Shown: positions 1 to 57,894, numbered from the stretch's first letter. The stretch: 64,000 nucleotides of DNA from a virus (IMGVR_UViG_3300044840_000020:5929-69928); one strand, 5' to 3'. The notes: generated from the letters alone by a model not told the origin. Numbers and translations: made by a program.

Positions 1-1
1 A

Positions 2-307
2 GCGGGCGACGCGAACGGGACGGACCCGAGCGTGCGTTTGGCGGAGCGGGAACGGGTGATCGCGTACTGGCCAGACGACCTGATCGTCGCGGTCGTGGAT
101 CGTACGATTGAACCCCCGCCGTGGCGATTGTTGCTTCAGCCAATAGGGTGGGAGGACGTTCCGCCAGATCAGGTGGTCGCGGTCGTTCGCGACTCGCTCG
201 CGACGAACGGTCGTTGGCCCTCGATAGATGGGTTACGTCGTCGGTTCAACCGGGTTACGAACCACCGTGGACCAGACGAGGTTGAAGGTCAGGAGAGCCT
301 TCTATGA
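2..307 (+). CDS. Hypothetical protein, 5'-truncated by window edge
   Basis: Frame of ORF 32..307 is open back to position 2; no recognisable motif. Confidence 0.4.
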   Translation, partial: AGDANGTDPSVRLAERERVIAYWPDDLIVAVVDRTIEPPPWRLLLQPIGWEDVPPDQVVAVVRDSLATNGRWPSIDGLRRRFNRVTNHRGPDEVEGQESLL

Positions 308-356
308 GTCTTCTACTCCTACTTCGTACCGCGATTGATCGAGTTACCGTCGAGCG

Positions 357-1475
357 ATGACGGTTCTGATCGTCGGGGGCGGCTTGACGGGGTGTACCGT
401 CGCGTATCGTCTCGCGTCGCGAGGGGTTCCCTCGGTCATCCTGGAGCGTGAGGACGTGATCGGCGGCCTGGTTCGGTCGGATCGTATGGGTGGGGTCCTG
501 TACGAGCCTCACGGGTCGCATATCTTTCATACGGATGACGAGGAGGTCTGGACGCTCGCGAACGAGTTCGTGTCGTTCAACGATTATCGTCATCGGGTTG
601 AGATCGTGATCGAGGGGAAGCTCTTGAACTGGCCGATCCTTCCGTCTGATATCGATCGTCAGAGTCGTGGGGACGAGATTCGTCGTCAGCTCGCGGAGCG
701 TGAGGGGATCGACTCGGACGCTCGGTCGGCGAACTTCGAGGAGTGGTGTCTCGATCTGATGGGATCGATCTTGTATGAGCGGTACGTGAAGCCGTATACG
801 GAGAAGCAGTGGGGTCGTCCCGCGTCCGAACTGTCGGCCTCGTGGGCTCCGCGTCGCGTTTCGGTTCGTTGGGATGGGGATCCGTACTTGTTTCCGGATC
901 GGTTTCAGGGGTGGCCGGCGAGCGAGAATGGGTACACGGATCTGATTGACGGACTGGTCGCGGACCGGTTGATAACGGTTCGGACGGGTGTTGACGTGAC
1001 GTTGGGGAACGTGGAGCGGTATGTTCGAGAGAAGGGGGCGCGGACGGTCGTGCTGACGTGTCCGCTAGATGAGTTCGCGGATGGGGTTCTTGGTCGGCTC
1101 GGGTGGCGCGGGATTTTGGTTCGGAGTGTTTACGTTCCTCATGTTGATCTTGCTCAGGGGGCGATGGTCGTGAACTATCCGGGTCGGGAGTATCCGTTTA
1201 TCCGTGTTCACGAGACGAAGCACGCGTCTCGTCAGCGCGTTGAGGGGACGGTTCTTGGGTTTGAGTTTCCGGGAGCGCCGACGCGTTATTACCCGATTCC
1301 GTCACCTGAGAGCGAGACGTTGAACGAGAGGTATAAGCAGATGATCGGGAGACGGTTAGGGGCTGAGGGGACGTTCTTCGCGGGGCGTTTGGCGAACTAC
1401 GTGTACGTCGATATGGATGACTGCATGAGACAGGCGATCGACGTGGCTGACGTAATCATTGAGGAGATTTCGTGA
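357..1475 (+). CDS. glf: UDP-galactopyranose mutase (FAD-dependent pyranose-furanose mutase)
   Basis: GGGLTG FAD motif, HGSHIFHT, YTEKQWG, FQGWP..GYT, RVHETKH, RYYPI and GRLANYVYVDMD match the UGM/Glf consensus in order; 372 aa. Confidence 0.9.
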   Translation: MTVLIVGGGLTGCTVAYRLASRGVPSVILEREDVIGGLVRSDRMGGVLYEPHGSHIFHTDDEEVWTLANEFVSFNDYRHRVEIVIEGKLLNWPILPSDIDRQSRGDEIRRQLAEREGIDSDARSANFEEWCLDLMGSILYERYVKPYTEKQWGRPASELSASWAPRRVSVRWDGDPYLFPDRFQGWPASENGYTDLIDGLVADRLITVRTGVDVTLGNVERYVREKGARTVVLTCPLDEFADGVLGRLGWRGILVRSVYVPHVDLAQGAMVVNYPGREYPFIRVHETKHASRQRVEGTVLGFEFPGAPTRYYPIPSPESETLNERYKQMIGRRLGAEGTFFAGRLANYVYVDMDDCMRQAIDVADVIIEEIS

Positions 1476-1552
1476 CGAGAGTCACCATTTTGTGGTATGG
1501 TTCCTTGAGAGACCCGGAGCGGGTTATCAAACTACCCGAGAGGACGTAAGTC

Positions 1553-2116
1553 ATGACTACCACGATTAGCGTGGAGGAGAAGGAGGCCGCTCGTAAGGCT
1601 TCGCGTGCGAAGGCGGAGCGGGATCGGCGTGCGAAGTTGAAGGCTGGGAAGGCGACGGTCGCGGAGGTTAAGCCGGTCGTGGCGAAGGCGTCGGAGATGG
1701 AGGCTAAACTGCGGCGTGGTCGCGTTCCGAGCGATCCGGTTGAGTCGTATGACGAGAAGGATCGGGCGCTCGCGGCGCTCGCGGTTCGGCTCGCGCCGAG
1801 GGTGGTTGTTCATCCGCGGACGATCGGTCCGATGAAGCAGATCGTCGGGCGGTCGGATCCGGTTGCGTTCGCGTTCGACGGGGTCCCGAAGGACGCGGAG
1901 GCGGCTGATGACGTGGTCGGCGGGCGTGATGCTCGCGCCGTTCTGCTGTCGTGGGCGCGGAGCGAGTTGGAGTCGAGCGATCCGGCGGCGCGTCGGATTC
2001 GTGCGACGGTCCAGCGTGTCCGTGGTGACGAGCGCGCGCCGCTGGTTGGCGGGAAGTCGGATCTCTGGGGCCGGAAGGTCGCGGCGATCCTGGTTGCTCT
2101 CGCTGATTCGAAGTGA
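1553..2116 (+). CDS. Hypothetical protein, basic N-terminus
   Basis: 187 aa ORF with RBS-like AGAGGA and genome-typical codon bias; overlaps next gene. Confidence 0.65.
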   Translation: MTTTISVEEKEAARKASRAKAERDRRAKLKAGKATVAEVKPVVAKASEMEAKLRRGRVPSDPVESYDEKDRALAALAVRLAPRVVVHPRTIGPMKQIVGRSDPVAFAFDGVPKDAEAADDVVGGRDARAVLLSWARSELESSDPAARRIRATVQRVRGDERAPLVGGKSDLWGRKVAAILVALADSK

Positions 2117-2481
2117 GCGACGATCTCATTGAGCCTGGGGTTCCTCTCGGGGGATCCCAGGCTGCGGGGGACGGGTCGGGTCGGGTTGCTCAGATGGATT
2201 TGATGGGGGGTCAGGACGACCCGGTTGACGTGGGGGTTGATCTTGACTCGTACCTGAACGCGGATGTTGAGTGGGTCGGGCTTCCGAAGTTCGTTCCGTT
2301 GGAGGGAAAGCGATTGTCGATCGTGATCGCGTTTGACTCGGAGGAGGATCGTGATCGGTTGGTCGATCAGTTGGGGTTATTCATCGCGAAGAAGACGGGC
2401 GTGACGTGGTCCGCGTGGTGGCCACCGCGGGAGCAGGAGGACCTGGCATCGCTACGGTTTGACTTCGGGGGAGACGAGTGA
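2113..2481 (+). CDS. Small acidic protein of the type found upstream of phage GREB1/TAGT glycosyltransferases
   Basis: EWVGLPKF...IVIAFDSEEDRDRL..QLG....KKT..WS.WWP pattern; 4-bp overlaps with both neighbours. Confidence 0.6.
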   Translation: MSDDLIEPGVPLGGSQAAGDGSGRVAQMDLMGGQDDPVDVGVDLDSYLNADVEWVGLPKFVPLEGKRLSIVIAFDSEEDRDRLVDQLGLFIAKKTGVTWSAWWPPREQEDLASLRFDFGGDE

Positions 2482-3434
2482 ATCCGAACGCGACCCGTTA
2501 TCCAATTTACGTTCCGTCGAAAGGGCGTAGCGCGCCGAATCAGGCGCTGACGGTGAGGGCGTTACTTCGGGATGACGTTCCGTTCTGTGTCGTTGTTGAA
2601 CCCCCCGAGGAGCGGGCGTACGTTGATCTTGTTGGCCGGAAGCGGGTACTCGTGCTTCCGTTCGAGAACCTTGGGCTTGGCGCGATCCCGGCTCGGAACT
2701 GGTGTAGGAAGCACGCGGAGGCGGAGGGATACGCGAGTCACTACCAGCTGGACGACAATATCATTGAGTTTCGGCGGCTATGGCGGGGGCGTCGGATTCC
2801 GTGTCACGCGGGGGTAGCGCTTCGTGTTTGTGAGGATCTGACGGATCGCTACTCGAACGTCGCCTTATCAGGATTGAACTACCAGATGTTCGTTCCGGCG
2901 GAGACGTCGGTTCCGTTCTACGTGAATTGTCATGTGTACTCAGCTACGCTTATTAACCACGCGGCTCCGTTCTGGTGGCGGCTCCGCTATAACGATGATA
3001 CGGATATCTGTTTACAGGCGCTCGCGGGCGGTTGGTGTACGATCCTCGTAAACGCCTTCGTCGCGAACAAGATGCGAACGATGTCGATGAGGGGCGGTAT
3101 GACCGACGAGTTTTACGCAGTGAATCGGGACGGTTCGGCTGTTGAGGGGAGCGTTGGGGCGGGTCGCGATTCGGCGACGTTCGGTCGGTTTGAGATGGCT
3201 CGGATGTTGGAGCGTGCGTGGCCGGGGATCGTGACGACTCGTTGGAGGTTTGGTCGTCCTCAGCACGTTGTGAATTGGGGGGCGTTTAAGACTCGGTTGA
3301 GGCTGAGGCCGGACGTTAATCTGGGTGATCTCGCGGCCGTGGATGAGTACGGATTGGTGTTACGAGCCGTGAGGGAGGTTCGGAGTCCGGCGTTGAGGGA
3401 TCTTCTTGAGGAGTTCCCCTTACGTTTCGAGTGA
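2478..3434 (+). CDS. GREB1-like / TET-associated glycosyltransferase (GT-A fold, putative DNA base glycosyltransferase)
   Basis: YPIYVPSKGR, VVVEP.E...Y, ARNW, QLDDNI (DxD-type), YNDDTDICLQAL..GWCT, GGMT, RFGRPQHVVNW motifs. Confidence 0.8.
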   Translation: MNPNATRYPIYVPSKGRSAPNQALTVRALLRDDVPFCVVVEPPEERAYVDLVGRKRVLVLPFENLGLGAIPARNWCRKHAEAEGYASHYQLDDNIIEFRRLWRGRRIPCHAGVALRVCEDLTDRYSNVALSGLNYQMFVPAETSVPFYVNCHVYSATLINHAAPFWWRLRYNDDTDICLQALAGGWCTILVNAFVANKMRTMSMRGGMTDEFYAVNRDGSAVEGSVGAGRDSATFGRFEMARMLERAWPGIVTTRWRFGRPQHVVNWGAFKTRLRLRPDVNLGDLAAVDEYGLVLRAVREVRSPALRDLLEEFPLRFE

Positions 3435-3440
3435 CGATAC

Positions 3441-3463
3441 GTTATAGTGGGTTTTACCCGAAC
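3441..3463 (+). promoter_or_regulatory. Conserved phage promoter/operator motif, copy 1
   Basis: GTTATAGTGGGTTTTACCCGAAC, identical to copy 2; 16 nt upstream of ATG 3480. Confidence 0.75.
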
Positions 3464-3479
3464 GTAAGGAGTTACCCGA

Positions 3480-3785
3480 ATGGCTGTGGGTCGCATCAAG
3501 TTTCCGGACGGTCGCGCGGCGCGCGAGACGGCGAAGATTATGAAGGACGCTGGTCTTGACCCAAAGGCGGTTCGTGAGGTTGGTAGGGCGGCGGATCGTC
3601 CGGGGTTGCTCGCCGAACTGGGTGATGATGAGCTCACGCCGATGCGCGTGATCGTTGGGGATTGTCCCCCGCGTTCTCGTGTAGCGATCGTGGCGGCGAT
3701 TGATGCGGCGGAGGCGTCGGCGGTTCGGGATGCGGTTCGTCCGCGTGGGGCGGCGTTGATCTCTCGGATGAGGCGAGAGGCGTAG
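3480..3785 (+). CDS. Hypothetical protein
   Basis: 101 aa ORF after motif and AAGGAG RBS. Confidence 0.7.
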   Translation: MAVGRIKFPDGRAARETAKIMKDAGLDPKAVREVGRAADRPGLLAELGDDELTPMRVIVGDCPPRSRVAIVAAIDAAEASAVRDAVRPRGAALISRMRREA

Positions 3786-3873
3786 TAACAAACTTGCCCC
3801 GCCTAGGGGGATTCTAGGAATCAACCGAAACGGCCAGGCTGAGTGATCGGCCGAGGAGCCAAAAAGGAGTTAC

Positions 3874-4212
3874 GTGATGACGTTTCATCCGACGGATCTA
3901 CATAGGGCGGTTCTATTTGCCCTTCCGAATGAGGGGTCGAGTTTGGGTTATCATCCGCTCGCGAAGTCTGTGGGGCGGGTGAGGATCGAGTTGAACGAGC
4001 CGCTTCCGGCGTTCATTCCGCCGTTGTCGTCGGGGGAGATCAACGCGGCGATGCGTAATCTGCGGGCGGAGGGGTTGGCGGTTGAGGCTCGGTCTGGCGC
4101 TCAGATCATTGGTTGGCAGCGGACGCCGGCCGGTATGGCGTTGATTGAGGGTTGGGTTCCGCCGACGTTTACCCAGGACACCAGCGATGATGAGATCGGG
4201 GCGGGGCGATGA
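3874..4212 (+). CDS. Hypothetical protein, possible winged HTH
   Basis: AAGGAG RBS; overlaps next gene by 4 bp. Confidence 0.6.
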   Translation: MMTFHPTDLHRAVLFALPNEGSSLGYHPLAKSVGRVRIELNEPLPAFIPPLSSGEINAAMRNLRAEGLAVEARSGAQIIGWQRTPAGMALIEGWVPPTFTQDTSDDEIGAGR

Positions 4213-5093
4213 GTCCTCCAGCTAATAGGCGTACGCTGGCGAAGAACGTCATGCTTCGCGATGATGATAACGGTCGGCGTCGGGAGCTGGAGGTCGTCAC
4301 GATTGATGATCTTCAGGTTGATCATCGGTATCAGCGGGATCTGAATCAGACGTTCGTGGAGTTGATCTTGGCGGACTATGATCCGGTCGCGGCGGACGTT
4401 TTGACGATTTCGCGGCGGGAGGATGGTTCGGAGTGGATCGTGAATGGTCAGCATCATGCGGCGGCGGCCCGGCTTGCGGGGGAGACGGAGGCGTTGGCCT
4501 GGGTTTACGAGGGGCTGTCCGTGATGCAGGAGGCGGACCTTCGGTTGAAGGCGAACCATCGGAAGTCGGACACGCATTTGGATCGGTTCCACGCAGCGTT
4601 TGAGGCGGGGCGGGAGAACGCGGTTCAGATCGTGAGGTTGACGGAGGAGTTCGGGACTCGCGTGAACCGGTCTGGGAACTCTCATACGGGGATCAACGCT
4701 GCGAGTGCTCTGGAGGCGGTTTACAAGGTTGATGAGGGCCTTCTGTTGCGGCGTACCTTGAAGTTTCTGCGGGACACGTACGGTCAGATCGGGGGTGATA
4801 ACGCTCAGGAGGCGATGATTCGCGGCGTGTCGTGGTTCATCTTGCAGCACTCGACGGAGGCGTCGATGGTTGATGTTCGGGATCGGTTGGAGAAGGCTGG
4901 GGTGGAGGAGATCGTTCGGAAGGCGCGGACGACGAAGGCCGCGATGGGCGGGTCGTTGTGGATCAACGTGTATCGCGCGATGGTTGAGATTTATAACTAT
5001 CGGCGGTCGATGCAGCATCGGATCGAGTGGCGTACGAAGCGGTCGACGAACATCTTGCAGCCCGATCGCGGTCGCGAGGTGGGGCGGCGATGA
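4209..5093 (+). CDS. ParB/Srx-like N-terminal domain protein (DUF6551-like)
   Basis: IDDLQVDHRYQRDL...YDP...LTISRR.DG...IVNGQHH..AA pattern. Confidence 0.75.
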   Translation: MSPPANRRTLAKNVMLRDDDNGRRRELEVVTIDDLQVDHRYQRDLNQTFVELILADYDPVAADVLTISRREDGSEWIVNGQHHAAAARLAGETEALAWVYEGLSVMQEADLRLKANHRKSDTHLDRFHAAFEAGRENAVQIVRLTEEFGTRVNRSGNSHTGINAASALEAVYKVDEGLLLRRTLKFLRDTYGQIGGDNAQEAMIRGVSWFILQHSTEASMVDVRDRLEKAGVEEIVRKARTTKAAMGGSLWINVYRAMVEIYNYRRSMQHRIEWRTKRSTNILQPDRGREVGRR

Positions 5094-5365
5094 TTCGTCT
5101 CCTTCGTTCGGACTGGAAGCTGGGGGATCCGCTCGTCTTATCGGAGCGTGTTCTATCGGAGCCTCGTTTGTCGAAGGCTCAGCGGGACGCGATGCTCTCC
5201 GTCGTTCTAAGGGACGAGAAGGCGGGAGTTGAGGGGTTAGACGCCCGAATGCGTCCCGTCGTGTCTGCGAGGCTTAGCGGGCCTCGTGGGCGTACTCGGT
5301 ACGCGTTGCTGCGGAACGGGGATCCGGCTAAGGTCGAGGGGCCGTTGACGGAGGTTTGGCGGTAG
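5090..5365 (+). CDS. Hypothetical protein
   Basis: ATGA overlap with ParB-like gene; ATG 5090 within ORF 5027..5365. Confidence 0.6.
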   Translation: MIRLLRSDWKLGDPLVLSERVLSEPRLSKAQRDAMLSVVLRDEKAGVEGLDARMRPVVSARLSGPRGRTRYALLRNGDPAKVEGPLTEVWR

Positions 5366-5437
5366 ACTCCTGTTCTGTTCGGGTAATGCGGTTGGTTGTG
5401 TCTGGCTCTGGAGCGTTCGCGTTCCGGAGCTAGATGC

Positions 5438-5460
5438 GTTATAGTGGGTTTTACCCGAAC
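5438..5460 (+). promoter_or_regulatory. Conserved motif, copy 2
   Basis: GTTATAGTGGGTTTTACCCGAAC upstream of ATG 5483. Confidence 0.75.
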
Positions 5461-5482
5461 ACTACGTCCCGAGGGGGATCGC

Positions 5483-6568
5483 ATGAAAACGATGTACAGT
5501 CTGACCGAGATGGCTCAGGAAATTGAGCGTCAGAACGCCGCGAAGATCGATTATCTGTCGCCAACGGACGCCGTTCATTTCGTCACGACTGACGATCGAT
5601 CAGAGGTTGATCTAAGTGGTACGGACGTCACGGGGCTTCGTTTGAACGATGTCGCTCACAATCAGCTCGCGGCGCGGCTACGGATCCCGCGTCCGTACTA
5701 CGAGCGGATCCGGTCGGAGGTTCCGGTTCTGCTTGATGAGTCCGTGAATCGGTTGCTGCGGCATCATCCGGGGAAGGACGCCCCGAAGTGGATGTGGCGG
5801 ACGCTGGATGGGACGGCTCGTGCGGTTCTGTCCGATGCTTATCGCCGTTTGGATCATTTCGAGATCGCGTCGGCGATTCTGCCGATCCTTCAGACGCTTC
5901 CGGGCGTTGAGATCCGTTCCTGCGCCCTGACCGATGTGCGGATGCATATTAAGGCGGTCACGTCGATCGAGGGTAAGGTTAACGGTTCGCGTGAGGTTGG
6001 GGACATCGTTCGCGCGGGGGTGTACGTCGGGAACTCCGAGGTTGGGTACGGGTCCGTGACCGTGTTTCCGTTCGTTGAGCGGTTGACATGTACGAACGGC
6101 ATGGTTTCGACGGTTGCGGGGGACGGGATGATGAAGCAGATTCATCTCGGGCGTCGCGTTGATGCGGACGGGAACGGTCGGATCTTCCGGGATGAGACGC
6201 GAAAGGCGGACGATCACGCGTTCATCCTCGCGCTCGGCGATGTGGTTCGCGCTGCGTGCGATGAGGCTAGGTTCCACGAACTGGTCGCGGAGATGAGTCG
6301 CGCGACGGAGGGCGAGCGGATCGGCGACGTCACGGCGGCGGTTGAGGTTCTCGCGCGCCGCGAGGGGCTCGGCGAGACGGAGTCGAAGGGGATTCTTCAG
6401 CATCTCGCGGAGGGCGGCGACCTATCTAGGTGGGGTCTCCTGAATGCTGTCACGCGGACGGCTGAGGATGTCGAGAGTTACGACAGGGCCACGGAGTTGG
6501 AGACGCTCGGCGGGAAGATTCTGGCGTACTCATCGCGTGATTGGTCCGCGTTGACGACGGTCTCGTAG
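5483..6568 (+). CDS. DUF932/DUF945-family phage protein
   Basis: RTLDGTARAVLSDAYRRLDH, GNSEVG.GSV.V.P...RL.CTNGM and WGLLNAVTRTA motifs. Confidence 0.75.
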   Translation: MKTMYSLTEMAQEIERQNAAKIDYLSPTDAVHFVTTDDRSEVDLSGTDVTGLRLNDVAHNQLAARLRIPRPYYERIRSEVPVLLDESVNRLLRHHPGKDAPKWMWRTLDGTARAVLSDAYRRLDHFEIASAILPILQTLPGVEIRSCALTDVRMHIKAVTSIEGKVNGSREVGDIVRAGVYVGNSEVGYGSVTVFPFVERLTCTNGMVSTVAGDGMMKQIHLGRRVDADGNGRIFRDETRKADDHAFILALGDVVRAACDEARFHELVAEMSRATEGERIGDVTAAVEVLARREGLGETESKGILQHLAEGGDLSRWGLLNAVTRTAEDVESYDRATELETLGGKILAYSSRDWSALTTVS

Positions 6569-6602
6569 AACTACGTCGCGCGTAGCGTTCGCGGACGTGT
6601 GC

Positions 6603-6633
6603 GGCCCTTCGACGGTTCGTTCGTCGGAGGGCC
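6603..6633 (+). terminator. Stem-loop after DUF932 gene
   Basis: GGCCCTT-CGAC...GTCG-GAGGGCC inverted repeat; no strong U tract. Confidence 0.4.
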
Positions 6634-6656
6634 GCTGGCTTTCCGCCTCCCATTCG

Positions 6657-6678
6657 TTTATAGTGGTTCTACCCGAAC
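6657..6678 (+). promoter_or_regulatory. Conserved motif, copy 3 (6-nt spacer)
   Basis: TTTATAGTGGTTCTACCCGAAC upstream of GAGGAGG RBS and ATG 6703. Confidence 0.7.
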
Positions 6679-6702
6679 GTTAGACTCCTGAGGAGGGACC
6701 GC

Positions 6703-7590
6703 ATGACCACGACGAATCCTTACACGACTGACCCGGCTACCGAGAACCAGATTCGGTTCGTTGAGCGTCTCGGCGGGGACGCGCTTCACGCTCATAAGCT
6801 GTCGAAGCGGGACGCGAGTCGTTACATCGACGATCTGAAGGCGAACCCCGTCTCGTCTGCTACGTCGTCTGTCTCGGTCACGGATCCTGGCGTTTACGAG
6901 CACGATGGGGTCGTGTATATCGTGAAACCGAACCGCGCGAAGACGGGGCTGTACGCGAAGCGGATTCGTGAGATTGGCGGGACGCGCGTGACGGCTGCGG
7001 GGACGTTCGTCGCGGTTGAGTTTGAGTACGCGGCGGGTGTTGTCTTCAACCTCTCGCCGGAGGATCGGATGACGGGTCAGCGCGCGAAGGAGTTGACGAT
7101 CCGGTACGGCAAGTGTATTTGTTGTGGTCGGGATCTGAGGGCGGGCGAGTCGGTCGAGCAGGGGATTGGCCCTGTTTGTGTGAGGTCGTTCCCGGATTTG
7201 GTCGCGGAGCGCGTGGAGATCAAGGCGCGGGCGAAGGCTGAGGCGAAGAGGTCGCGGGAGATCGTAGCGAACTACGCGGCGGCTGATCTTGCGCCGATCG
7301 CGGGTGGCGCTCCATCGCTCGTTGAGATGGCTACTCGAATTGAGGGTAAGCCACGTGTTGAGACTCGCGTGGAGGTCGACCTAGCGAACTTCCAGGCGAT
7401 CGCCGACGATTTTAGGCGCGACCAGGCACTAGTCGTAGCGCAGCCGACGATTGATGAACGCGCCGAGAAGGCGCGCGAGTTGATCTGCGGGGCGCTGGCC
7501 TGTTTGCGGTTAGAGTTTGGTATTCCCGTCGAGGATTGCGATGAGGCGCTCGCTACGTTCGACGTGCTGCTCGATGGGTTCGAGCGATGA
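6703..7590 (+). CDS. Phage protein with DUF6011-like zinc-finger
   Basis: GKCICCGRDL...ESVEQGIGPVC motif. Confidence 0.65.
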   Translation: MTTTNPYTTDPATENQIRFVERLGGDALHAHKLSKRDASRYIDDLKANPVSSATSSVSVTDPGVYEHDGVVYIVKPNRAKTGLYAKRIREIGGTRVTAAGTFVAVEFEYAAGVVFNLSPEDRMTGQRAKELTIRYGKCICCGRDLRAGESVEQGIGPVCVRSFPDLVAERVEIKARAKAEAKRSREIVANYAAADLAPIAGGAPSLVEMATRIEGKPRVETRVEVDLANFQAIADDFRRDQALVVAQPTIDERAEKARELICGALACLRLEFGIPVEDCDEALATFDVLLDGFER

Positions 7591-8660
7591 GTCGAATCTG
7601 TTACATCCCGAAGCGGTTCTCGTTGACGGCGCGGCTGGTGATCGCGAGGGCGAACGAGATCTGCGCCGAGTTCGGCCGCGATGGGGACGACCTGACCCTC
7701 CGCCAGTTTTATTACCAGTTCGTCGCTCACGATCACTTCCCGGACGATCGCACGTGGGTTCAGGTTGGGAACCGATGGGTTCCCGATCCGAACGGGACGA
7801 AGAACGCGGAGCCGAACTACAAGTGGCTCGGCGGTCTCGTTAACGATGCGCGTCTCGCGGGTGAACTCGATTGGCGGTATATCGTTGATCGGACGCGGGC
7901 GGTGTACGGTGGTTCGGGGAGCGATACGGATCCGTCCGAGGTCGTCGCGTCAGCGGCGGAGATGTACGCGATCGATAAGTGGGAGGGCCAGGAGTTCTAC
8001 GTTGAGGCGTGGGTTGAGAAAGACGCGCTGTCGGGTGTTCTTCAGCGTGCTTGTGGGCCATTGGAGATCCCGTATTTCGCGTGTCGCGGGTATCCGTCGC
8101 AGTCTGCGATCTGGAGGGCTGCTCAGCGGTTACGGTTCGCGTTTCAGGATGATAAACGCGTTCGGATCATCCACCTTGGGGATCACGATCCTTCGGGGAT
8201 CGACATGACGCGGGATATCGAGGAGCGCCTATCGACGTTTCTCGCTCAGGATCATCTCGGGATGGAGGATGGTCGTCCCGTTGACGAGTATGTTGAGGCG
8301 ATGGCGGACGACGGGTTGTTTGAGGTTCGTCGGATCGCGTTGACGATGGCTCAGATCCGCGAGTTTGATCCGCCGCCGAACCCGGCGAAGTTGACGGACT
8401 CTCGCGGGAGTTCGTATGTTCGTGAGTATGGCGATTCGTCGTGGGAGCTTGATGCGCTCTCGCCGGCTGTTCTAAGGACGTTGATTACGGAGACGGTCTT
8501 GGAGTATCGGGATGACGTTGCGTGGCGGGAGCGTGTCTCTCGGGAGGTTCAGGAGAAGCGTATTCTCGTCGCGTTGAACGAGCATTGGTCGGAGGTCGCG
8601 GGTTACGTTCGCTTGAATTGGCCGGATGAGGTTGAGGGCGACGATAAGGAGTCTCAGTGA
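7587..8660 (+). CDS. Spo11/topoisomerase VI subunit A-like (winged helix + TOPRIM) protein
   Basis: LTLRQFYYQ (putative catalytic Tyr), EAWVEKDAL, CRGYPS, LGDHDPSG (DxD), RIALT..QI, WELDAL. Confidence 0.7.
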   Translation: MSRICYIPKRFSLTARLVIARANEICAEFGRDGDDLTLRQFYYQFVAHDHFPDDRTWVQVGNRWVPDPNGTKNAEPNYKWLGGLVNDARLAGELDWRYIVDRTRAVYGGSGSDTDPSEVVASAAEMYAIDKWEGQEFYVEAWVEKDALSGVLQRACGPLEIPYFACRGYPSQSAIWRAAQRLRFAFQDDKRVRIIHLGDHDPSGIDMTRDIEERLSTFLAQDHLGMEDGRPVDEYVEAMADDGLFEVRRIALTMAQIREFDPPPNPAKLTDSRGSSYVREYGDSSWELDALSPAVLRTLITETVLEYRDDVAWRERVSREVQEKRILVALNEHWSEVAGYVRLNWPDEVEGDDKESQ

Positions 8661-17800: not shown

Positions 17801-19171
17801 GTGTCGCTTGTTCGTAGGGCAGTCTCGGGTATCTCGCATGAGGTGAGGGCCGCCGATGGAAGACAGCCGTGGGGTGATAGCACACCCATTCCGAACTCGC
17901 TTGCGGGGGGAGCGCGGGTTGGCGGCATCCCCGTCACTCAGTCCTCGGTCACGCGGATTTCGACGGTGTACGCATGCATTGGATTGCTCGCCGACACGAT
18001 CTCGTCGCTCCCGACTCAGCTTCGCGATGGGCCTCAGGTCGCGACGTCGAAGGTTCTGAAGCCGTCCCCGCTGCTAACGCGGCCGTACGCGGAGATCAGT
18101 CGCCGCGATTGGTGGGTTCAGTTCATCTGGTCGCTCGCGTTACGCGGGAACTTCTTCGGGTTGATCATCGAGCGTGATCGTCTCGGCGATCCGGTTCAGA
18201 TTAAGCCGATCAGCCCGGATCGCGTGCAGCTTCGCCGTCTTCCGGGGTCGGGAATATTGGAGTACAGGTTCAACGGTTTGGTCGTCCCGCTCGATGATGT
18301 TGTTCACGTCAGGTATCAGACTCATCCGGGGTCGCTGATTGGCTTGAACCCGATCGAGATCTGTGCTCTGTCGTTCGGGTTGCAGATCGCTCAGGAGTCG
18401 TACGCGGAGACGTTCTTCTCGAATAGCGCGAATCCTCAGGGTGTGATTCAGGTCCCTGGTGTCCTGGATGTTGTTGAGACGAAGAAGATGATGCGTGGTT
18501 GGATCGCGGCGCATCAGGGGTTGAATCAGGCGAACTTGCCGGCGATCTTGACGGAGGGCGCGGAGTTCAAGGCGATCACGATCAACCCGTCCGATTCTCA
18601 GTTGTTGGAGGCTTTGGGGGCGTCGCGGTCGTTGATCGCGGGAACGATCTTCCGCATTCCGCTTCACATGGTGGGGATCGTCGATCGTTCTTCGAGTTGG
18701 GGACGAGGTCTCGAAGTCATGGAAAGAGGGTTCTTCTCGAACACGTTGATCGGTTATCTCGTTCCCGCAGTGGAGATGATGACGGGGTATCACCCTACTG
18801 GGCAGTTCATGCACTTTGATACGAAGGAGCGGTTGCGGGGGACGGCGTTGGAGCGGGCTCAGACGGGTTCGCTCGCGATGCTTGCGGGTGCGTGGTGTGC
18901 GGATGATTTCCGGGCGACGTTTGATCAGCCTCCGTTGCCTGATGGGAAGGGTCAATACACATATGCACCGATCAACACCGAGTTGCTGCTCCAAGCATTG
19001 CAACTCTTGAAGGATTCGGAGACGACTCCAGAACCGCCGGAACCGGAGGGTGATCAGAGTATCCCGACGCCTTCGGGGGGCGCTCCGGCGGCTGGTCGGT
19101 CCTCGAATGGTCACGGGCGAATGTCGCGTGATCAAGCCGCGGCGCTCGTACGTTCCGTCATCGGCGGCTAG
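17801..19171 (+). CDS. Portal protein (HK97 family)
   Basis: STVYACIGLLADTISSLP, LALRGNFF, GLNPI, FFSNSANPQGVI, ILTEGAEF, IFRIPLHMVG. Confidence 0.92.
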   Translation: MSLVRRAVSGISHEVRAADGRQPWGDSTPIPNSLAGGARVGGIPVTQSSVTRISTVYACIGLLADTISSLPTQLRDGPQVATSKVLKPSPLLTRPYAEISRRDWWVQFIWSLALRGNFFGLIIERDRLGDPVQIKPISPDRVQLRRLPGSGILEYRFNGLVVPLDDVVHVRYQTHPGSLIGLNPIEICALSFGLQIAQESYAETFFSNSANPQGVIQVPGVLDVVETKKMMRGWIAAHQGLNQANLPAILTEGAEFKAITINPSDSQLLEALGASRSLIAGTIFRIPLHMVGIVDRSSSWGRGLEVMERGFFSNTLIGYLVPAVEMMTGYHPTGQFMHFDTKERLRGTALERAQTGSLAMLAGAWCADDFRATFDQPPLPDGKGQYTYAPINTELLLQALQLLKDSETTPEPPEPEGDQSIPTPSGGAPAAGRSSNGHGRMSRDQAAALVRSVIGG

Positions 19172-19214
19172 GTAGTTCCATTCTTGTTCCCTCACTGCTA
19201 AGGCGGAGGTCATC

Positions 19215-20663
19215 ATGAAGAAGGAAGATAGGGCCTACTCCGCCAAGGAGTTGGAGGTGCTGGTGAAGGGTTCTTCGACGCCGACTGTGGTTGATTGGAA
19301 GCGGGCGGTTAGGGCGGTGACCCGCGGTGACGCGGGTTACGATGCCATCAGGAAGGATCTCGTCGGTCGTGCTCAGAAACTGGGCGTGAATGAACTTGTC
19401 CCGTCGAACTGGAACGCGGACGGGAGCTTGGAGTCGAAGGCGGGTATCTGGACGGATCAGGAGTCGCGGGAGACCCACGGGGATCTCGCGGTCGCTCTCT
19501 CGGACGCGCTTGAGGGGCTTGTTGACGACATGGACGGCGTGTATTACGGCTGGCTTCAGGACTTTGATGATGAGAACATGTACTTCCAGGCGGGTGGTTT
19601 GTTGTACTCGGCGTCGTACGTGGTAGCGGATGGTGGTCCCGTGACGCTGGGAGATCCGACGCGGGTTCGTCCCGTTACGTCGTACGTTCCCGCAGAGGAC
19701 GACTTGGAGCGGTCGGAGGCGAAGCCTGAGCGGCGTCTCGCGTCGCGAACGTTGGAGTGGCGGAAGGAGCGCGCGCCGAAGCGTTTGGATCGTGAGACGC
19801 GGGAGATCGCTCGTCCGTTCGAACTACGTGACGAGGATGATGGTGATACGTGCGTTCTTCGGTCGTACGCCAGTCTGTTTGATGAGCCGTACACGGTTGG
19901 GTCTGGGTCTTATCGGTATCAGGAGACTGTGCTGCCGGGGGCGTTCAAGCGGACGTTGAACAACGGTCCGGACGTGGTTTTTCGCGCGGAGCATGGTGGG
20001 CCGCCTCTTGCGCGTACGTCGTCGGGGACGTTGACGGTTGGTGAGGATGAGACGGGCCTTTGGTATGAGGCGAGTCTTTCTCGCGCGGATCCGGATGTTC
20101 AGCGGTTGATTCCGAAGATTGAGCGCGGGGATTATCGCGAGTCAAGTTTTGCGTTTCGTTGCGTCGAGGACGCGTGGAACGATGACTACTCGAAACGGTC
20201 TCTGAAGGCGTGTGATCTTGATAGGGGGGATGTTAGTATCGTCACGTTTGGGGCGTCTCGCGCGACGGGGAAGCACATGCTTTTGAGGTCGGAGGAGGAG
20301 GCGATCCTGTCGCTTCGTTCGGGTGGGGTTGAGGTTCTGTTGGCGGCTCTTGTTGAGTGGCGTGACTTCACGCTTACCCCGTTGGAGGATCGGGCGGGGA
20401 AGGCGATCTCGGCGTCGAACCTGGCGACGTTGAAGCACGTTCTGTCGCTTGCGGCGTCCGCAGATGAGGCTTTGGATGAGATTCAGCCGACGCTCGCGGA
20501 CTTGATGGGGGTTCCGAACCCGGACGCGGATGATGACGCGACGGAGGAGAACGCGGATAAGACCGAACCGGTTGAGGAACGGGTCGAACTACCCAAGGTT
20601 CCTGCGCTACCCGCGTCGTCTCTTCGTGATCTACGGCGCGAACTTCGTCGGAGGGCCGCCTGA
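19215..20663 (+). CDS. HK97-family prohead protease with N-terminal extension (DUF6582-like)
   Basis: YASLFD..Y, ETVLPGAF, EHGGPPLART.SGTL...ED.TGL, SFAFR, DVSIVT; N-terminal AIRKDL..RA.KLG...LVP.NW..DGSL. Confidence 0.85.
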   Translation: MKKEDRAYSAKELEVLVKGSSTPTVVDWKRAVRAVTRGDAGYDAIRKDLVGRAQKLGVNELVPSNWNADGSLESKAGIWTDQESRETHGDLAVALSDALEGLVDDMDGVYYGWLQDFDDENMYFQAGGLLYSASYVVADGGPVTLGDPTRVRPVTSYVPAEDDLERSEAKPERRLASRTLEWRKERAPKRLDRETREIARPFELRDEDDGDTCVLRSYASLFDEPYTVGSGSYRYQETVLPGAFKRTLNNGPDVVFRAEHGGPPLARTSSGTLTVGEDETGLWYEASLSRADPDVQRLIPKIERGDYRESSFAFRCVEDAWNDDYSKRSLKACDLDRGDVSIVTFGASRATGKHMLLRSEEEAILSLRSGGVEVLLAALVEWRDFTLTPLEDRAGKAISASNLATLKHVLSLAASADEALDEIQPTLADLMGVPNPDADDDATEENADKTEPVEERVELPKVPALPASSLRDLRRELRRRAA

Positions 20664-23724: not shown

Positions 23725-23927
23725 CCGGACGGCCTCGCCCCGCTCCCTTCCGCGAGGCCCATCAAGCCTGGAGGGTCTTGACACGTCCCGAATTGGGCGT
23801 TTCTCGACCCCTGGCGATCTTACCCACTCTCGATCTACGAGAGTCCACAAGGTCCTGGAGTAAGTTCCGCTGATTGGCGTTACCCCTCCCAGGACACCAC
23901 GACTACTCTCAGAAGGAGAGTGATCCT

Positions 23928-24581
23928 ATGCCACAGTCTGGTCCTGATCTAGTTGGTGCGGGTTATCCGCTGAGTTATTCCCCCCGAGCGTTGCTTGGTG
24001 GTCTGTCGAACTTCACTCAGCCGAACATTCCGGCTCGGTCGAACCTGGAGTGGTTCGGGTTGAACGCTGCGACGGATGGTGCGCTCGCGGCGTCGGGCGT
24101 CGGTTGTGTCGTCCCGGTCCCGGTTGATGTGGGGACGCCGATCACGAGGGTCTCCCTGATCATCGGTGCGACGGCGGCTTCTACGCCTACGCATCAGTTT
24201 GTTGCGATTTATCCGGGGACGGGTGTTGCGGTGAACACGGGTGCGTTGTTGGCTCAGTCTGCGGATGGTTTGACGGCTGCGGTTGCGGCGGGTGCGGCGG
24301 GTACTGTTGCTCCGTTGACGTACACGTTGGCGTCTACGGTCACTCCGACCGCGGCGACGGCTCCTCAGGGGTTCGTGTACGTGATGGTTTCGTTTACGGG
24401 TACGGCGGTTCCGACCGCGTTGTCGTTCGGGACCCCCGCGGGAATCAATTATCAGTGGAATGCACTGGTGAGTCCGGCGTTCCTGTCGGCGACGACTGGT
24501 ACGGCGCTTGGTGGGACGGCCCCGGCGACGCTGGGCACACTGACGGCGAAGGTCGTTGCGCCCTGCATCATCCTTACGTGA
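23928..24581 (+). CDS. Virion structural protein (probable head decoration)
   Basis: Ala/Thr/Gly-rich beta protein directly after MCP; RBS AAGGAG. Confidence 0.55.
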   Translation: MPQSGPDLVGAGYPLSYSPRALLGGLSNFTQPNIPARSNLEWFGLNAATDGALAASGVGCVVPVPVDVGTPITRVSLIIGATAASTPTHQFVAIYPGTGVAVNTGALLAQSADGLTAAVAAGAAGTVAPLTYTLASTVTPTAATAPQGFVYVMVSFTGTAVPTALSFGTPAGINYQWNALVSPAFLSATTGTALGGTAPATLGTLTAKVVAPCIILT

Positions 24582-25201
24582 GCGTGGTTTCGCGGGAGCG
24601 GGTTTCGGTTCGCTCCCGTTCGCTGGCGCTGCCTGATGGTCAGGCGGTCAGGTTCGTCGTTGACGAGTTCGGGGATGAGACGGTCCTGTTTGATCGCGGT
24701 TCGGTTACGCGATCCGTGGAGGGTTACGAAGTCCCATTCGGTGTGTTCGTTCCGTATACGGTTCGGCGTCAGGCGACGGTTGATGGGGCTCCGTTGAACG
24801 CGACGTGGGTGGATGTGTCGGTCTCGCCTGTCGCGTATTACGCGGCGTTGTTGGATTGGTGGTCCCGGGGGGAGACGTTCATGGTGGTTGAGCACGACGT
24901 GGTGTGTTCGGAGGCGATTGTTCGCGAGATGGACGAGTGCCCGGAACCGTGGTGTTTGTTTTCGTACTCTGATCTTTGTCATCCTGAGTGTCGCGAGGCG
25001 TGGCACAACCATCTTGGTTGTACGCGATTCCGTAGCGAACTGGTCGAGGCGGTTCCGGATGCGGTTCGGGGTGCTCCTCGCGAGGATTGGGATTGGCATA
25101 CGGCGTGTAACGGTTTGGGCGAGAATCTTCGTCGCGCCGGGTTTTCTCATCATTGGCATGGTTCGGTTCCTCATTGTCACGAGCCGCTCGTAGCGGCCTG
25201 A
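24578..25201 (+). CDS. Putative GT-A glycosyltransferase
   Basis: FMVVEHDVV (DxD-like), PEPWC.FSY, LGCTRFRSEL and C-terminal His cluster. Confidence 0.5.
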   Translation: MSVVSRERVSVRSRSLALPDGQAVRFVVDEFGDETVLFDRGSVTRSVEGYEVPFGVFVPYTVRRQATVDGAPLNATWVDVSVSPVAYYAALLDWWSRGETFMVVEHDVVCSEAIVREMDECPEPWCLFSYSDLCHPECREAWHNHLGCTRFRSELVEAVPDAVRGAPREDWDWHTACNGLGENLRRAGFSHHWHGSVPHCHEPLVAA

Positions 25202-56912: not shown

Positions 56913-57394
56913 GCGATCCCTGGATGGGGATGGCGTCCGACGCTGGTGCCTGTGGCGACGAGCAGCGTCAGATGGCCGGTCAGATCGAGTCGGAGGAACG
57001 CGAGCGGGATGAGGAACGACAGGCGGAGAAACGTCGCCTTATGGGCGCTGGATCCCACTGTATACGCTGCGGGGTTGAGTACGAGTCACCGAGTCGCCCG
57101 GCGTGTGAGTGTGCGGGTGATCCGCCTGTCGACAAGGACGGTCCTGACCACGAAGCGTATCTGACGCGGGTGCGTCGGTTGAGGTGGGGACCGATGGTCG
57201 AGGAGAGCGAACTACGTCAGATCGTTCGCGCCTCGGTTGAGGGTGTTCGTCCGACGATGCGGCGGGTGATCGGCGATGCGACGCCCGCTCAGTACGATGC
57301 GGCGGATGAGATCGCGAAGGCTGTTGCGGCGTCGGTTAGGTCTGCGGTCGCGAGGACTTTGGGGCGTGTGGGTCGGGATGAGGTCAGCCGATGA
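56909..57394 (+). CDS. Hypothetical protein
   Basis: ATGA coupling; CIRCG motif. Confidence 0.55.
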   Translation: MSDPWMGMASDAGACGDEQRQMAGQIESEERERDEERQAEKRRLMGAGSHCIRCGVEYESPSRPACECAGDPPVDKDGPDHEAYLTRVRRLRWGPMVEESELRQIVRASVEGVRPTMRRVIGDATPAQYDAADEIAKAVAASVRSAVARTLGRVGRDEVSR

Positions 57395-57441
57395 CCGCGT
57401 TGACGAATTTTGGGGCGCAAGCCCGGTCGTTCAGGGCCGGG

Positions 57442-57858: not shown

Positions 57859-57894
57859 GCTAGACAGCATAGACCAAGTGGTAGACTGAATGGC

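What the first reader, a model, noticed from the sequence alone, without database searches (positions are those of the whole stretch)
357..3434. UDP-galactopyranose mutase next to a TET-associated-type glycosyltransferase: candidate furanose-sugar DNA hypermodification
Seen: an intact Glf/UGM gene lies about 1 kb upstream of a coupled three-gene run ending in a GREB1/TAGT-like glycosyltransferase and its small acidic partner. Known: UGM makes UDP-galactofuranose, and TAGT-family enzymes are linked to glycosylation of oxidised bases in phage DNA; described phage DNA sugars include glucose and arabinose. Inference: this phage may install galactofuranose (or another furanose) on its DNA to resist restriction or CRISPR, a modification I am not aware has been described. 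The acceptor-making enzyme (TET/JBP, hydroxymethylase) is not in the window and may lie upstream of base 1.
Basis: partly seen in the sequence, partly recalled or inferred. Interest (0 to 1): 0.85.

Follow-up and report, generated by a model that had tools for sequence, protein, structure and literature searches.

The report
Phage galactofuranose sugar-transfer gene cassette
An uncultured contractile-tailed phage, probably of a soil actinobacterium, carries a host-derived enzyme that makes the ring-contracted sugar donor UDP-galactofuranose next to a sugar transferase from a DNA-decorating family; they probably coat the phage DNA with that sugar, a variant of a known camouflage, but this is untested and no gene that prepares the DNA base was found.

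Summary
Window 357-1475 is an intact UDP-galactopyranose mutase (Glf). Window 1553-3434 is a three-gene run joined by two GTGA overlaps. It ends in a small acidic protein (pI 4.05) and a TAGT-family (PF20691) GT-A glycosyltransferase.

The Glf-to-TAGT link is supported by comparison. Of 80 Glf-bearing viral loci, 9 (four lineages) have a TAGT abutting Glf, and 8 of these also have a ParB-type partner. One locus adds a T4 gp42-type dCMP hydroxymethylase. An NDP-sugar epimerase sits beside the TAGT cassette in 14 of 80 TAGT loci. This phage's Glf is 68-73% identical to Solirubrobacterales enzymes and about 30% to the other viral Glfs, so it was captured independently.

The novelty claim is weakened. 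Epimerase-dependent DNA glycosyltransferases have been shown experimentally (Pyle 2023). A phage mutase feeding UDP-galactofuranose to DNA glycosylation was proposed for Rhizobium phage RL38J1 (NAR 2026). This scan has also noted Glf-plus-DNA-glycosyltransferase modules and ParB-TAGT pairs on other DNA many times.

Open points:
- No ThyA-type or TET/JBP-type acceptor-making enzyme is in the 70-kb record, which is about 70% complete. The 17 near-complete relatives checked have no ThyA homologue and no TET/JBP match over the Pfam cut-off.
- A second GT-A-like gene in the head module (24578-25201) could also use the sugar.

Verdict: a new variant of a known kind, moderately interesting.

The parts
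357..1475 (+). Glf / UDP-galactopyranose mutase (372 aa), a host-derived auxiliary gene
   Evidence: PF03275 E 1.6e-37. Matches PDB UGMs at E 1e-42 to 1e-49 with catalytic motifs conserved. The nearest homologues, at 68-73% identity, are Solirubrobacterales/Thermoleophilia bacterial proteins.
1476..1552 (+). 77-bp spacer with a weak 5-bp hairpin (1472-1485) and a GAGGA ribosome-binding site before the next gene
   Evidence: There is no perfect copy of the phage's TTATAGT-N8-CCCGAAC promoter-like motif here, so read-through from Glf is likely (inference).
1553..2116 (+). orf187: basic (pI 10.2) protein of unknown fold, first gene of the coupled run
   Evidence: No Pfam or PHROG match. The Atlas model has low confidence. 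It has only 9 relatives among 1.8 billion representative proteins. One relative heads a coupled run in L175: orf187-like, a 150-aa gene, the CTD partner, then TAGT.
2113..2481 (+). Small acidic partner (122 aa, pI 4.05). Residues 48-122 are the conserved TAGT-partner C-terminal domain (CTD). It has no ParB_N domain.
   Evidence: Homologous CTD in the gene just upstream of TAGT in 51 of 83 loci. hhalign against the ParB_N-CTD partner alignment A2 gives probability 99.3%, E 4.6e-20. In L007 the CTD is fused to the C-terminus of TAGT. GTGA overlaps on both sides.
2478..3434 (+). TAGT-family GT-A glycosyltransferase (318 aa, pI 9.0)
   Evidence: PF20691 E 1.6e-39. 1942 homologues with E <= 1e-5 among the 8000 candidates scored; the best 120 listed, all PF20691, are 51-73% identical. 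AF2 model pLDDT 84 with a GT-A fold. Invariant D92-D93-N94 and N172/D174/D176 acidic motifs.
3442..3463 (+). Perfect copy of the promoter-like motif TTATAGT-N8-CCCGAAC, 7 bp after the TAGT stop. It marks the start of the next transcription unit.
   Evidence: It is the only perfect copy in the first 9.5 kb of the record.
4209..5093 (+). ParB-like protein (DUF6551 / phrog_1033) 0.8 kb downstream. It could stand in for the ParB_N half that the small partner lacks (speculative).
   Evidence: PF20188 E 3e-10 and phrog_1033 E 3.9e-15. No detectable similarity to the ParB_N part of the partner family.
24578..25201 (+). GT-A-like protein (207 aa) in the head module: a rival user of UDP-Galf
   Evidence: No Pfam or PHROG match. 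It has 113 homologues. The AF2 model (pLDDT 86) matches almost only GT-A glycosyltransferases, including virus capsid-glycosylating enzymes. In relatives it is conserved after the two capsid genes and followed by a SAM methyltransferase.

Best explanation
The region is a donor-tailoring glycosylation cassette in the early/DNA-metabolism arm of a myovirus. The host is probably a Solirubrobacterales (Thermoleophilia) actinobacterium.

Proposed mechanism:
1. Glf, captured from the host lineage, converts host UDP-galactopyranose to UDP-galactofuranose.
2. The TAGT-family GT-A enzyme transfers that sugar to phage DNA after replication and before packaging. It is helped by its small acidic CTD partner and perhaps by the basic orf187 protein.
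3. The likely role is protection of the DNA from host nucleases.

Shown here: gene identities, translational coupling, the conserved partner domain, recurrent TAGT-Glf and TAGT-epimerase adjacency in other phages, and the independent origin of this Glf.

Inferred: that Glf feeds TAGT in this phage, that the target is DNA, and that the sugar is galactofuranose.

Unknown: the acceptor. No ThyA-type or TET/JBP-type enzyme was found.
For: 1. Identity of both enzymes.
2. Layout: Glf lies 77 bp upstream of the coupled run on the same strand. There is no perfect promoter-motif copy between them, and a perfect copy sits directly after TAGT.
3. Reverse co-occurrence: 9 of 80 Glf-bearing IMG/VR loci have a TAGT above the Pfam cut-off abutting Glf, and 8 also have a ParB-CTD partner. 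They fall into four lineages (TAGT 23-55% and Glf 45-57% identical between lineages).
4. In L131 the TAGT-Glf pair is followed, after a short 114-aa ORF, by a T4 gp42-type dCMP hydroxymethylase (E 7e-56 to 1B49/1B5E).
5. An NDP-sugar epimerase/dehydratase is adjacent to, or overlaps, the cassette in 14 of 80 TAGT loci. Such epimerase-GT pairs were shown to glycosylate 5hmC DNA in an epimerase-dependent way (bioRxiv 10.1101/2023.12.21.572611).
6. TAGT is the only GT of a recognised family in the record: PF20691 matches once, and there are no GT2 or GT4 matches.
7. Context is DNA metabolism: helicase plus N6/N4 methyltransferase upstream (syntenic with TAGT in L020 and L084), and a ParB-like protein and a topoisomerase-like protein downstream.
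8. The usual partner carries a ParB_N domain. ParB-like activators of phage DNA-modifying enzymes have experimental precedent (PMC13229309).
9. Glf-GT pairs sit in DNA-replication modules of other phages: DSL-LC01 has a ThyA homologue, and RL38J1 is described in PMC13326640.
10. This Glf is 68-73% identical to Solirubrobacterales Glf and 30-32% to the cassette-linked viral Glfs (33-37% to DSL-LC01-type ones), so the pairing arose independently.
Against: - No acceptor-making enzyme is present. ThyA family and TET/JBP are absent from the 70-kb record. The 50 related TAGT records and the 9 cassette records (17 near-complete in all) have no TET/JBP match over the cut-off (one weak hit) and no ThyA homologue, apart from the gp42-type enzyme of the fragment L131. 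C5-methyltransferase is present in only 2 of 17.
- Glf is absent from all 50 records holding the closest TAGT relatives, so this TAGT clade normally works without it.
- A weak hairpin and a degenerate motif lie between Glf and the run.
- A second GT-A-like protein in the head module could use UDP-Galf.
- One TAGT-family member, animal GREB1, glycosylates a protein (PMC7968844, abstract).
- No chemistry was tested, and the record is only about 70% complete.
Confidence: 0.5

Rival explanations
1. Glf supplies UDP-galactofuranose for virion-protein glycosylation. The transferase would be the GT-A-like protein encoded in the head module (24578-25201), which sits just after the two capsid genes and an Ala/Thr/Ser-rich 235-aa protein. 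TAGT would use a different, host-made donor.
For: The AF2 model of 24578-25201 (pLDDT 86) matches GT-A glycosyltransferases, including PBCV-1 A64R, STIV A197 and Mimivirus R655. The gene is conserved in the same position in relatives and is followed there by a SAM methyltransferase. Virion glycosylation by phage GTs is known in mycobacteriophages (my own knowledge, not checked here). Glf is absent from the closest TAGT relatives.
Against: Glf lies 23 kb away from that gene, in the non-structural arm, directly upstream of the TAGT run. TAGT-Glf adjacency recurs in four other lineages. No Glf was seen within 10 kb of the head-GT homologues examined. The Foldseek E-values are modest (3e-4 and weaker).
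Confidence: 0.17
2. Glf does feed TAGT, but TAGT with its CTD partner glycosylates something other than DNA: a phage or host protein, as GREB1 does, or another cell component.
For: No acceptor-priming enzyme is found in 17 near-complete genomes carrying this kind of cassette. GREB1, a TAGT-family member, O-GlcNAcylates a protein (PMC7968844). The nearest solved structures are protein-, lipid- or polysaccharide-directed GT-A enzymes.
Against: The usual partner carries a ParB_N domain. The neighbours are helicase, methyltransferase and terminase genes. The experimentally characterised phage members of PF20691 act on DNA-linked sugars (PMC13216743). L131 couples TAGT-Glf to a dCMP hydroxymethylase.
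Confidence: 0.15
3. Glf is an unrelated auxiliary metabolic gene, for example one that boosts or alters host cell-wall galactofuranan during infection. It merely happens to lie next to the TAGT run, and TAGT uses UDP-glucose or another common donor.
For: The Glf is a recent host-type gene, 68-73% identical to Solirubrobacterales Glf. A weak hairpin follows it. None of 50 related TAGT records has Glf.
Against: TAGT-Glf and TAGT-epimerase adjacency recur independently. The record has no membrane or GT2-type galactofuranosyltransferase. The gene is on the same strand with no strong promoter motif in between.
Confidence: 0.12

Closest known systems
Glycosylated 5-hydroxycytosine pathway of Rhizobium phage RL38J1 / Pootjesviridae (Lee et al., NAR 2026, PMC13326640)
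   Same: A phage-encoded UDP-galactopyranose mutase is proposed to make UDP-Galf as donor for DNA glycosyltransferases. Galactose is the base-proximal sugar on that phage's DNA. Furanose sugars (arabinofuranose) are proven by NMR on RB69 and DLP3 DNA in the same paper.
   Different: There the acceptor (5-hydroxy-dCMP) is made by a ThyA homologue that is present in the genome, and the glycosyltransferases were matched to other GT structures and are not described there as TAGT. Here the transferase is TAGT with a CTD partner, the Glf was acquired independently from an actinobacterial lineage, and no acceptor-making enzyme is seen.
Subclass II phage DNA glycosylation clusters: sugar epimerase plus GT acting on 5hmC (Pyle et al., bioRxiv 10.1101/2023.12.21.572611)
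   Same: An NDP-sugar tailoring enzyme is encoded next to a DNA glycosyltransferase, and GT activity depends on that enzyme. I found the same logic around this TAGT clade: an epimerase sits beside TAGT in 14 of 80 loci.
   Different: Those clusters carry a C5-methyltransferase plus a 5mYOX/TET enzyme to make 5hmC, and their tailoring enzyme is an epimerase, not a ring-contracting mutase.
T2/T6 beta-glucosyl-HMC-alpha-glucosyltransferase, the characterised member of Pfam PF20691 (PMC13216743, PMC13390438)
   Same: Same Pfam family and GT-A fold. It acts on phage DNA.
   Different: The T6 enzyme adds a second glucose to alpha-glucosyl-5hmC and needs gp42 and alpha-GT. T2/T6 phages were not among the tblastn hits at E <= 1e-5. 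The enzyme here is a solitary TAGT with a dedicated partner.
ParB-dependent phage thymine dioxygenases (O'Toole et al., PNAS 2026, PMC13229309)
   Same: A ParB-like protein made of a nucleotide-binding domain plus a CTD, with no obvious DNA-binding domain, is the cognate helper of a post-replicative DNA-modifying enzyme.
   Different: There the client enzyme is a 5mYOX dioxygenase, not a GT. In this phage the partner has lost the ParB_N half altogether. Homology between the two CTDs was not tested.
ParB-adaptor plus TAGT cassette, with or without Glf, noted earlier in this scan (e1-308209, e1-461629, e1-3580374)
   Same: A coupled partner-TAGT pair, often before the terminase, without any acceptor-priming enzyme.
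   Different: Here the order is Glf, orf187, CTD-only partner, TAGT. The cassette lies among replication and anti-restriction genes 11 kb before the terminase, and the Glf is of host (Thermoleophilia) type.

Membership tests
UDP-galactopyranose mutase (Glf/UGM, Pfam PF03275) | GLF domain above the Pfam gathering score, plus an N-terminal FAD-binding Rossmann motif | tested here: met
   129.6 bits against a cut-off of 26.3. NAD_binding_8 at E 2.2e-15 over residues 5-71.
UDP-galactopyranose mutase (Glf/UGM, Pfam PF03275) | Conserved substrate-binding and catalytic residues of bacterial UGMs: the Tyr/Trp of YTxKQW, the mobile-loop Arg, the second Arg in RxHE, the Tyr of YYPI and the GRLxxYxYxDM motif | tested here: met
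   Full-length HMMER alignment to M. tuberculosis UGM 4RPG/1V0J shows all these motifs in register. Assigning the residues to roles rests on my knowledge of the UGM literature.
UDP-galactopyranose mutase (Glf/UGM, Pfam PF03275) | Interconversion of UDP-Galp and UDP-Galf, as opposed to acting on UDP-GalNAc or UDP-arabinose | not testable with these tools
   Needs an enzyme assay.
TAGT (TET-associated glycosyltransferase, Pfam PF20691) | Full-length match above the gathering score | tested here: met
   136.5 bits against a cut-off of 27.5, covering profile positions 1-205 of 205. Confirmed by six-frame search.
TAGT (TET-associated glycosyltransferase, Pfam PF20691) | GT-A fold with acidic metal/nucleotide-sugar motifs | tested here: met
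   AF2 model pLDDT 84, pTM 0.85. The best Foldseek hits are GT-A enzymes such as ColGalT1, SpsA, TarP and AvpGT. D92-D93-N94 and D174/D176 are invariant. Which motif is catalytic was not resolved.
TAGT (TET-associated glycosyltransferase, Pfam PF20691) | Genomic association with an enzyme that makes a hydroxylated or hydroxymethylated pyrimidine (TET/JBP-5mYOX, or a ThyA homologue such as gp42) | tested here: not met
   No PF12851 or PF00303 match in the 69.9-kb record. Across the 59 related records, 17 of them near-complete, there is no ThyA match except in the fragment L131, and only one weak TET/JBP hit, below the cut-off. Caveats: the record is about 70% complete; PF12851 misses part of the phage 5mYOX enzymes (PMC13229309); the PF12851 search had no positive control here.
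TAGT (TET-associated glycosyltransferase, Pfam PF20691) | Transfers sugar to DNA | not testable with these tools
   Needs nucleoside mass spectrometry.
ParB-adaptor plus TAGT two-gene cassette (informal, uncharacterised) | Partner gene immediately upstream of TAGT, translationally coupled, carrying the conserved C-terminal domain | tested here: met
   GTGA overlap. CTD present in 51 of 83 loci and in the window protein, hhalign probability 99.3%.
ParB-adaptor plus TAGT two-gene cassette (informal, uncharacterised) | Partner has an N-terminal ParB_N (PF02195) domain | tested here: not met
   The 122-aa partner has only a 47-residue low-complexity N-terminus. Neither orf187 nor the downstream DUF6551 protein aligns to the ParB_N part of alignment A2. 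The closest relatives (L004, L006, L175) also have CTD-only partners.
Phage DNA sugar hypermodification with a donor-tailoring enzyme (Pyle subclass II; Pootjesviridae UGM) | An NDP-sugar-modifying enzyme encoded beside the DNA glycosyltransferase | tested here: met
   Glf lies 77 bp upstream of the run. The pairing recurs in 9 of 80 Glf-bearing loci, and the epimerase version in 14 of 80 TAGT loci.
Phage DNA sugar hypermodification with a donor-tailoring enzyme (Pyle subclass II; Pootjesviridae UGM) | A glycosylated nucleoside present in virion DNA | not testable with these tools
   The phage is uncultured and no chemistry is available.

The most novel reading that the evidence does not exclude
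TAGT enzymes of this partner-dependent kind, including this one, need no pre-made hydroxymethyl or hydroxy pyrimidine. With the CTD/ParB-type partner they would attach a sugar, here galactofuranose, directly to a canonical base or another native group of DNA. That would be a chemistry with no described precedent. The sugar donor would be swapped freely between phages (Glf, epimerase and, according to earlier scan notes, SqdB).
Probability: 0.15. Interest if true: 0.9.

Novelty: new variant of a known kind. Interest (0 to 1): 0.5.

Why it matters
Sugar-coated DNA is one of the main ways phages evade restriction enzymes and CRISPR, and each new sugar changes which host defences work.

This locus adds evidence that TAGT-type transferases are modular. 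The same transferase-plus-partner core is combined with different donor-tailoring enzymes in different phages. Here a galactofuranose-making mutase was taken independently from the host lineage.

It also sharpens an open question that can now be tested directly: what is the acceptor for the large group of partner-dependent TAGT enzymes, given that the near-complete phage genomes checked carry no known base-priming enzyme? Because galactofuranose is absent from mammals, a Galf-modified DNA would also be a useful enzymatic labelling chemistry.

Tried and rejected
- Megablast of window 1-8000 against 50,697 phage records found no match.
- The search for related loci with the single TAGT protein found nothing. 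An alignment was needed.
- Aeromonas phages appeared in both the Glf and the TAGT tblastn lists. However, the two TAGT-bearing ones checked (phage 65 and Aeh1) have no Glf, so that apparent co-occurrence was dropped.
- Neither orf187 nor the DUF6551 ParB-like protein shows similarity to the ParB_N half of the partner family, so the idea of a 'split ParB partner' is unsupported.
- A relaxed Pfam scan (E <= 5) of ten unassigned neighbouring ORFs found no dioxygenase, radical-SAM or ThyA-like hit.
- Other records could not be searched whole, because metagenome contigs from the look-up of encoding contigs are not held.
There is no verdict. The partner claim rests on conserved adjacency, the overlap and one fusion.
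- DUF5131 recurs near TAGT in three related contigs, and I considered it as a candidate priming enzyme. It was not pursued, because only the N-terminal 46 residues match in this record.


Full report
**What the window is.** The window is bases 5929-69928 of a 69,928-bp IMG/VR virus record. The record is linear and CheckV estimates it at about 70% complete. GC content is 61%, and most plausible genes lie on the + strand. It encodes a large terminase, a portal, a protease, two tandem HK97-type capsid genes, a tail sheath, a tape measure and baseplate proteins, so it is a contractile-tailed phage. The finding lies in the non-structural arm.

**Checking the observation.**
- Window 357-1475 is a 372-aa UDP-galactopyranose mutase. 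It matches PF03275 at E 1.6e-37 and has a FAD Rossmann N-terminus. It aligns end to end with solved UGMs (4RPG, E 2.5e-49), and the YTxKQW, loop-Arg, RxHE, YYPI and GRLxNYxYxDM motifs are kept.
- Window 2478-3434 is a 318-aa TAGT-family protein. It matches PF20691 at E 1.6e-39 over the full profile. Its AF2 model (pLDDT 84) matches mainly GT-A glycosyltransferases in the PDB.
- The genes at 1553-2116 (187 aa, pI 10.2), 2113-2481 (122 aa, pI 4.05) and 2478-3434 are joined by two GTGA stop/start overlaps.

**What lies upstream of base 1.** I fetched the 5.9 kb that precede the window. They encode a DUF6745 protein, a phrog_11375 protein, a short DUF5131-like protein, a zinc-finger protein, a Holliday-junction resolvase, a helicase and an N6/N4 DNA methyltransferase. 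Six-frame searches of the whole record found no thymidylate-synthase-family protein, no TET/JBP and no C5-methyltransferase. It could still be in the missing ~30%, since I identified no DNA polymerase or nucleotide-metabolism block among the ORFs I scanned.

**The small partner.** The last 75 residues of the 122-aa protein are a conserved domain. A homologous domain ends the gene immediately upstream of TAGT in 51 of 83 related loci, and in one locus (L007) it is fused to the C-terminus of TAGT itself. In most phages that upstream protein is 215-360 aa long, with a ParB_N domain (PF02195) followed by this C-terminal domain (alignment A2). The window protein aligns to that domain with hhalign probability 99.3%. 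In this phage and its closest relatives (L004, L006, L175) the partner is reduced to the C-terminal domain alone. The basic orf187 has only nine relatives among 1.8 billion representative proteins. One of them heads a coupled run in L175, in the order orf187-like, a 150-aa gene, the CTD partner and TAGT, so it probably belongs to this clade's cassette.

**Does Glf go with TAGT?** Starting from TAGT, none of 50 viral records holding the closest TAGT relatives (15 of them at least 90% complete) has a Glf. This TAGT clade therefore does not normally need one.

However, 14 of 80 loci have an NDP-sugar epimerase/dehydratase overlapping or next to the cassette. That is the arrangement shown experimentally to give epimerase-dependent glycosylation of 5hmC DNA (bioRxiv 10.1101/2023.12.21.572611).

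Starting from Glf, 9 of 80 Glf-bearing viral loci have a TAGT above the Pfam cut-off that ends at or overlaps the Glf start. Eight of them also have a ParB-CTD partner just upstream, and three records carry a second TAGT. The nine fall into four lineages, with TAGT 23-55% and Glf 45-57% identical between lineages. In three lineages the next genes have the sizes expected of small and large terminase subunits; I did not annotate them.

In the fourth lineage (L131) the pair is followed, after a short 114-aa ORF, by a close relative of T4 gp42 dCMP hydroxymethylase, at E 7e-56. That is the clearest sign that a TAGT-Glf pair serves DNA modification.

The window's Glf is only 30-32% identical to those cassette-linked viral Glfs, but 68-73% identical to proteins of Solirubrobacterales/Thermoleophilia bacteria. 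This phage therefore assembled the same pair independently from a host-type gene. The same result points to the likely host.

**Transcription context.** A promoter-like motif, TTATAGT-N8-CCCGAAC, precedes several non-structural genes. In the first 9.5 kb of the record its only perfect copy lies 7 bp after the TAGT stop. Between Glf and orf187 there is only a weak 5-bp hairpin and a degenerate look-alike of the motif. Co-transcription of Glf with the run is therefore likely, but not shown.

**What argues for DNA as the target.**
- The characterised phage member of PF20691 (T2/T6) acts on DNA-linked glucose (PMC13216743).
- The usual partner is ParB-like, and ParB-like activators of phage DNA dioxygenases have been shown experimentally (PMC13229309).
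- The neighbours here are a helicase, a methyltransferase, a ParB-like DUF6551 protein and a topoisomerase-like protein. The helicase-methyltransferase pair is syntenic with TAGT in two other phages.
- Glf-GT pairs sit in replication modules elsewhere. Actinomycetia phage DSL-LC01 and its IMG/VR relatives have a GT-Glf-GT trio, and DSL-LC01 has a ThyA homologue and a dCMP deaminase about 8 kb upstream.

**What argues against, or is missing.**
- No known base-priming enzyme is present here. The 17 near-complete genomes with TAGT cassettes have no ThyA homologue and no TET/JBP match over the cut-off (one weak hit). C5-methyltransferase occurs in 2 of 17 and N6/N4 methyltransferase in 3 of 17.
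- PF12851 is known to miss some phage 5mYOX enzymes, and my PF12851 searches had no positive control.
- GREB1, a TAGT relative, glycosylates a protein.
- Following a note on this same genome, I tested the ORF at 24578-25201. It has no Pfam or PHROG match. It has 113 homologues, and its AF2 model (pLDDT 86) matches almost only GT-A glycosyltransferases, including virus capsid-glycosylating ones. In relatives it sits after the capsid genes and before a SAM methyltransferase. It is a credible second user of UDP-Galf.
- No GT2 or GT4 family protein is present in the record.

**Comparison with what is known.** PMC13326640 (NAR, July 2026) shows arabinofuranose on 5-hydroxycytosine in RB69 and DLP3. 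For Rhizobium phage RL38J1 it proposes galactosylated 5-hydroxycytosine made with UDP-Galf from a phage-encoded UGM. This scan has also recorded Glf-plus-DNA-GT modules (27 notes) and ParB-TAGT cassettes (227 notes) on other DNA, including one ParB-GT-Glf cassette. What is particular here is the TAGT core with a CTD-only partner and an orphan basic protein, combined with an independently captured actinobacterial Glf and no visible acceptor pathway.

**Verdict.** My estimates:
- About 0.65 that Glf feeds TAGT.
- About 0.5 overall that the outcome is galactofuranosylated phage DNA.
- About 0.15 for the more radical reading that this partner-dependent TAGT class glycosylates unprimed DNA.

The finding is a new variant of a known kind, with interest 0.5.

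Noticed in passing
L131:4221-7543 (IMG/VR UViG_3300001531_000174): TAGT (390 aa), an overlapping Glf, a 114-aa ORF and a T4 gp42-type dCMP hydroxymethylase (E 7e-56 to PDB 1B49) lie in one co-oriented block with no ParB partner. This is a compact predicted hmC-galactofuranose module.
   Followed up: partly
L089:6950-10095 (Actinomycetia phage DSL-LC01, OQ999401.1) and L092-L100: A GT - UGM - distant-paralogue-GT trio, with GT and UGM overlapping, sits in the replication module between a RecA-like gene and MazG. DSL-LC01 also has a ThyA homologue and a dCMP deaminase about 8 kb upstream. The trio is conserved in at least seven IMG/VR contigs from three diverged lineages.
   Followed up: partly
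window 24578-25201 (+) and 23874-24581 (+): A GT-A-like 207-aa protein with no Pfam match (invariant E105-H106-D107 and LGCTRF motifs) is coupled to an Ala/Thr/Ser-rich 235-aa protein right after the two capsid genes. In relatives (L173, L174) it is followed by a SAM methyltransferase. This is a candidate virion glycosylation module.
   Followed up: partly
L007:10634-13393 (NCBI GCA_040384205.1 contig): A phage whose TAGT carries the partner CTD fused at its C-terminus also encodes a CMP-sugar synthetase/epimerase fusion and a NeuB-type nonulosonic acid synthase, inside its head module.
   Followed up: no
L004:11722-13972 and 19139-19663 (JGI 3300066007 contig): The closest long relative (TAGT 63% identical) has Amidoligase_2, a class-I glutamine amidotransferase (Peptidase_C26) and a GGACT protein just downstream of TAGT. 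This is a gamma-glutamyl-type modification gene set of unknown target.
   Followed up: no
L006:8802-11667 (Logan SRR29078169 contig); G054, G057, G058: Some relatives carry two TAGT paralogues. In L006 they are in tandem and followed by a methyltransferase. In G054, G057 and G058 they flank the ParB partner before Glf. This suggests di-saccharide or methylated-sugar products.
   Followed up: no
window 3442, 5438, 6657, 9566, 53226, 55401, 56451: A conserved motif, TTATAGT-N8-CCCGAAC, lies 12-25 nt upstream of start codons of non-structural genes. It is absent from the roughly 7.7 kb that run up to the TAGT stop. It looks like a phage-specific promoter.
   Followed up: partly
window 2478-2552: The gene call on record for TAGT (293 aa, P0001) starts 25 codons too late and removes the conserved PxYPxYVPSKGR N-terminus. 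The GTG at 2478, which overlaps the upstream stop, is the supported start.
   Followed up: yes
L002:3261-5671 (record bases 3261-5671, upstream of the window): A helicase and an N6/N4 DNA methyltransferase with overlapping reading frames both match parts of phrog_16, a 986-aa family annotated as DNA helicase. They are syntenic with the ParB-TAGT cassette in two other phages (L020, L084) at 52-65% identity.
   Followed up: partly
window 57391-59082 (+): A 563-aa transposase-like gene (phrog_506, E 5.8e-81) lies in the right arm of the phage.
   Followed up: no
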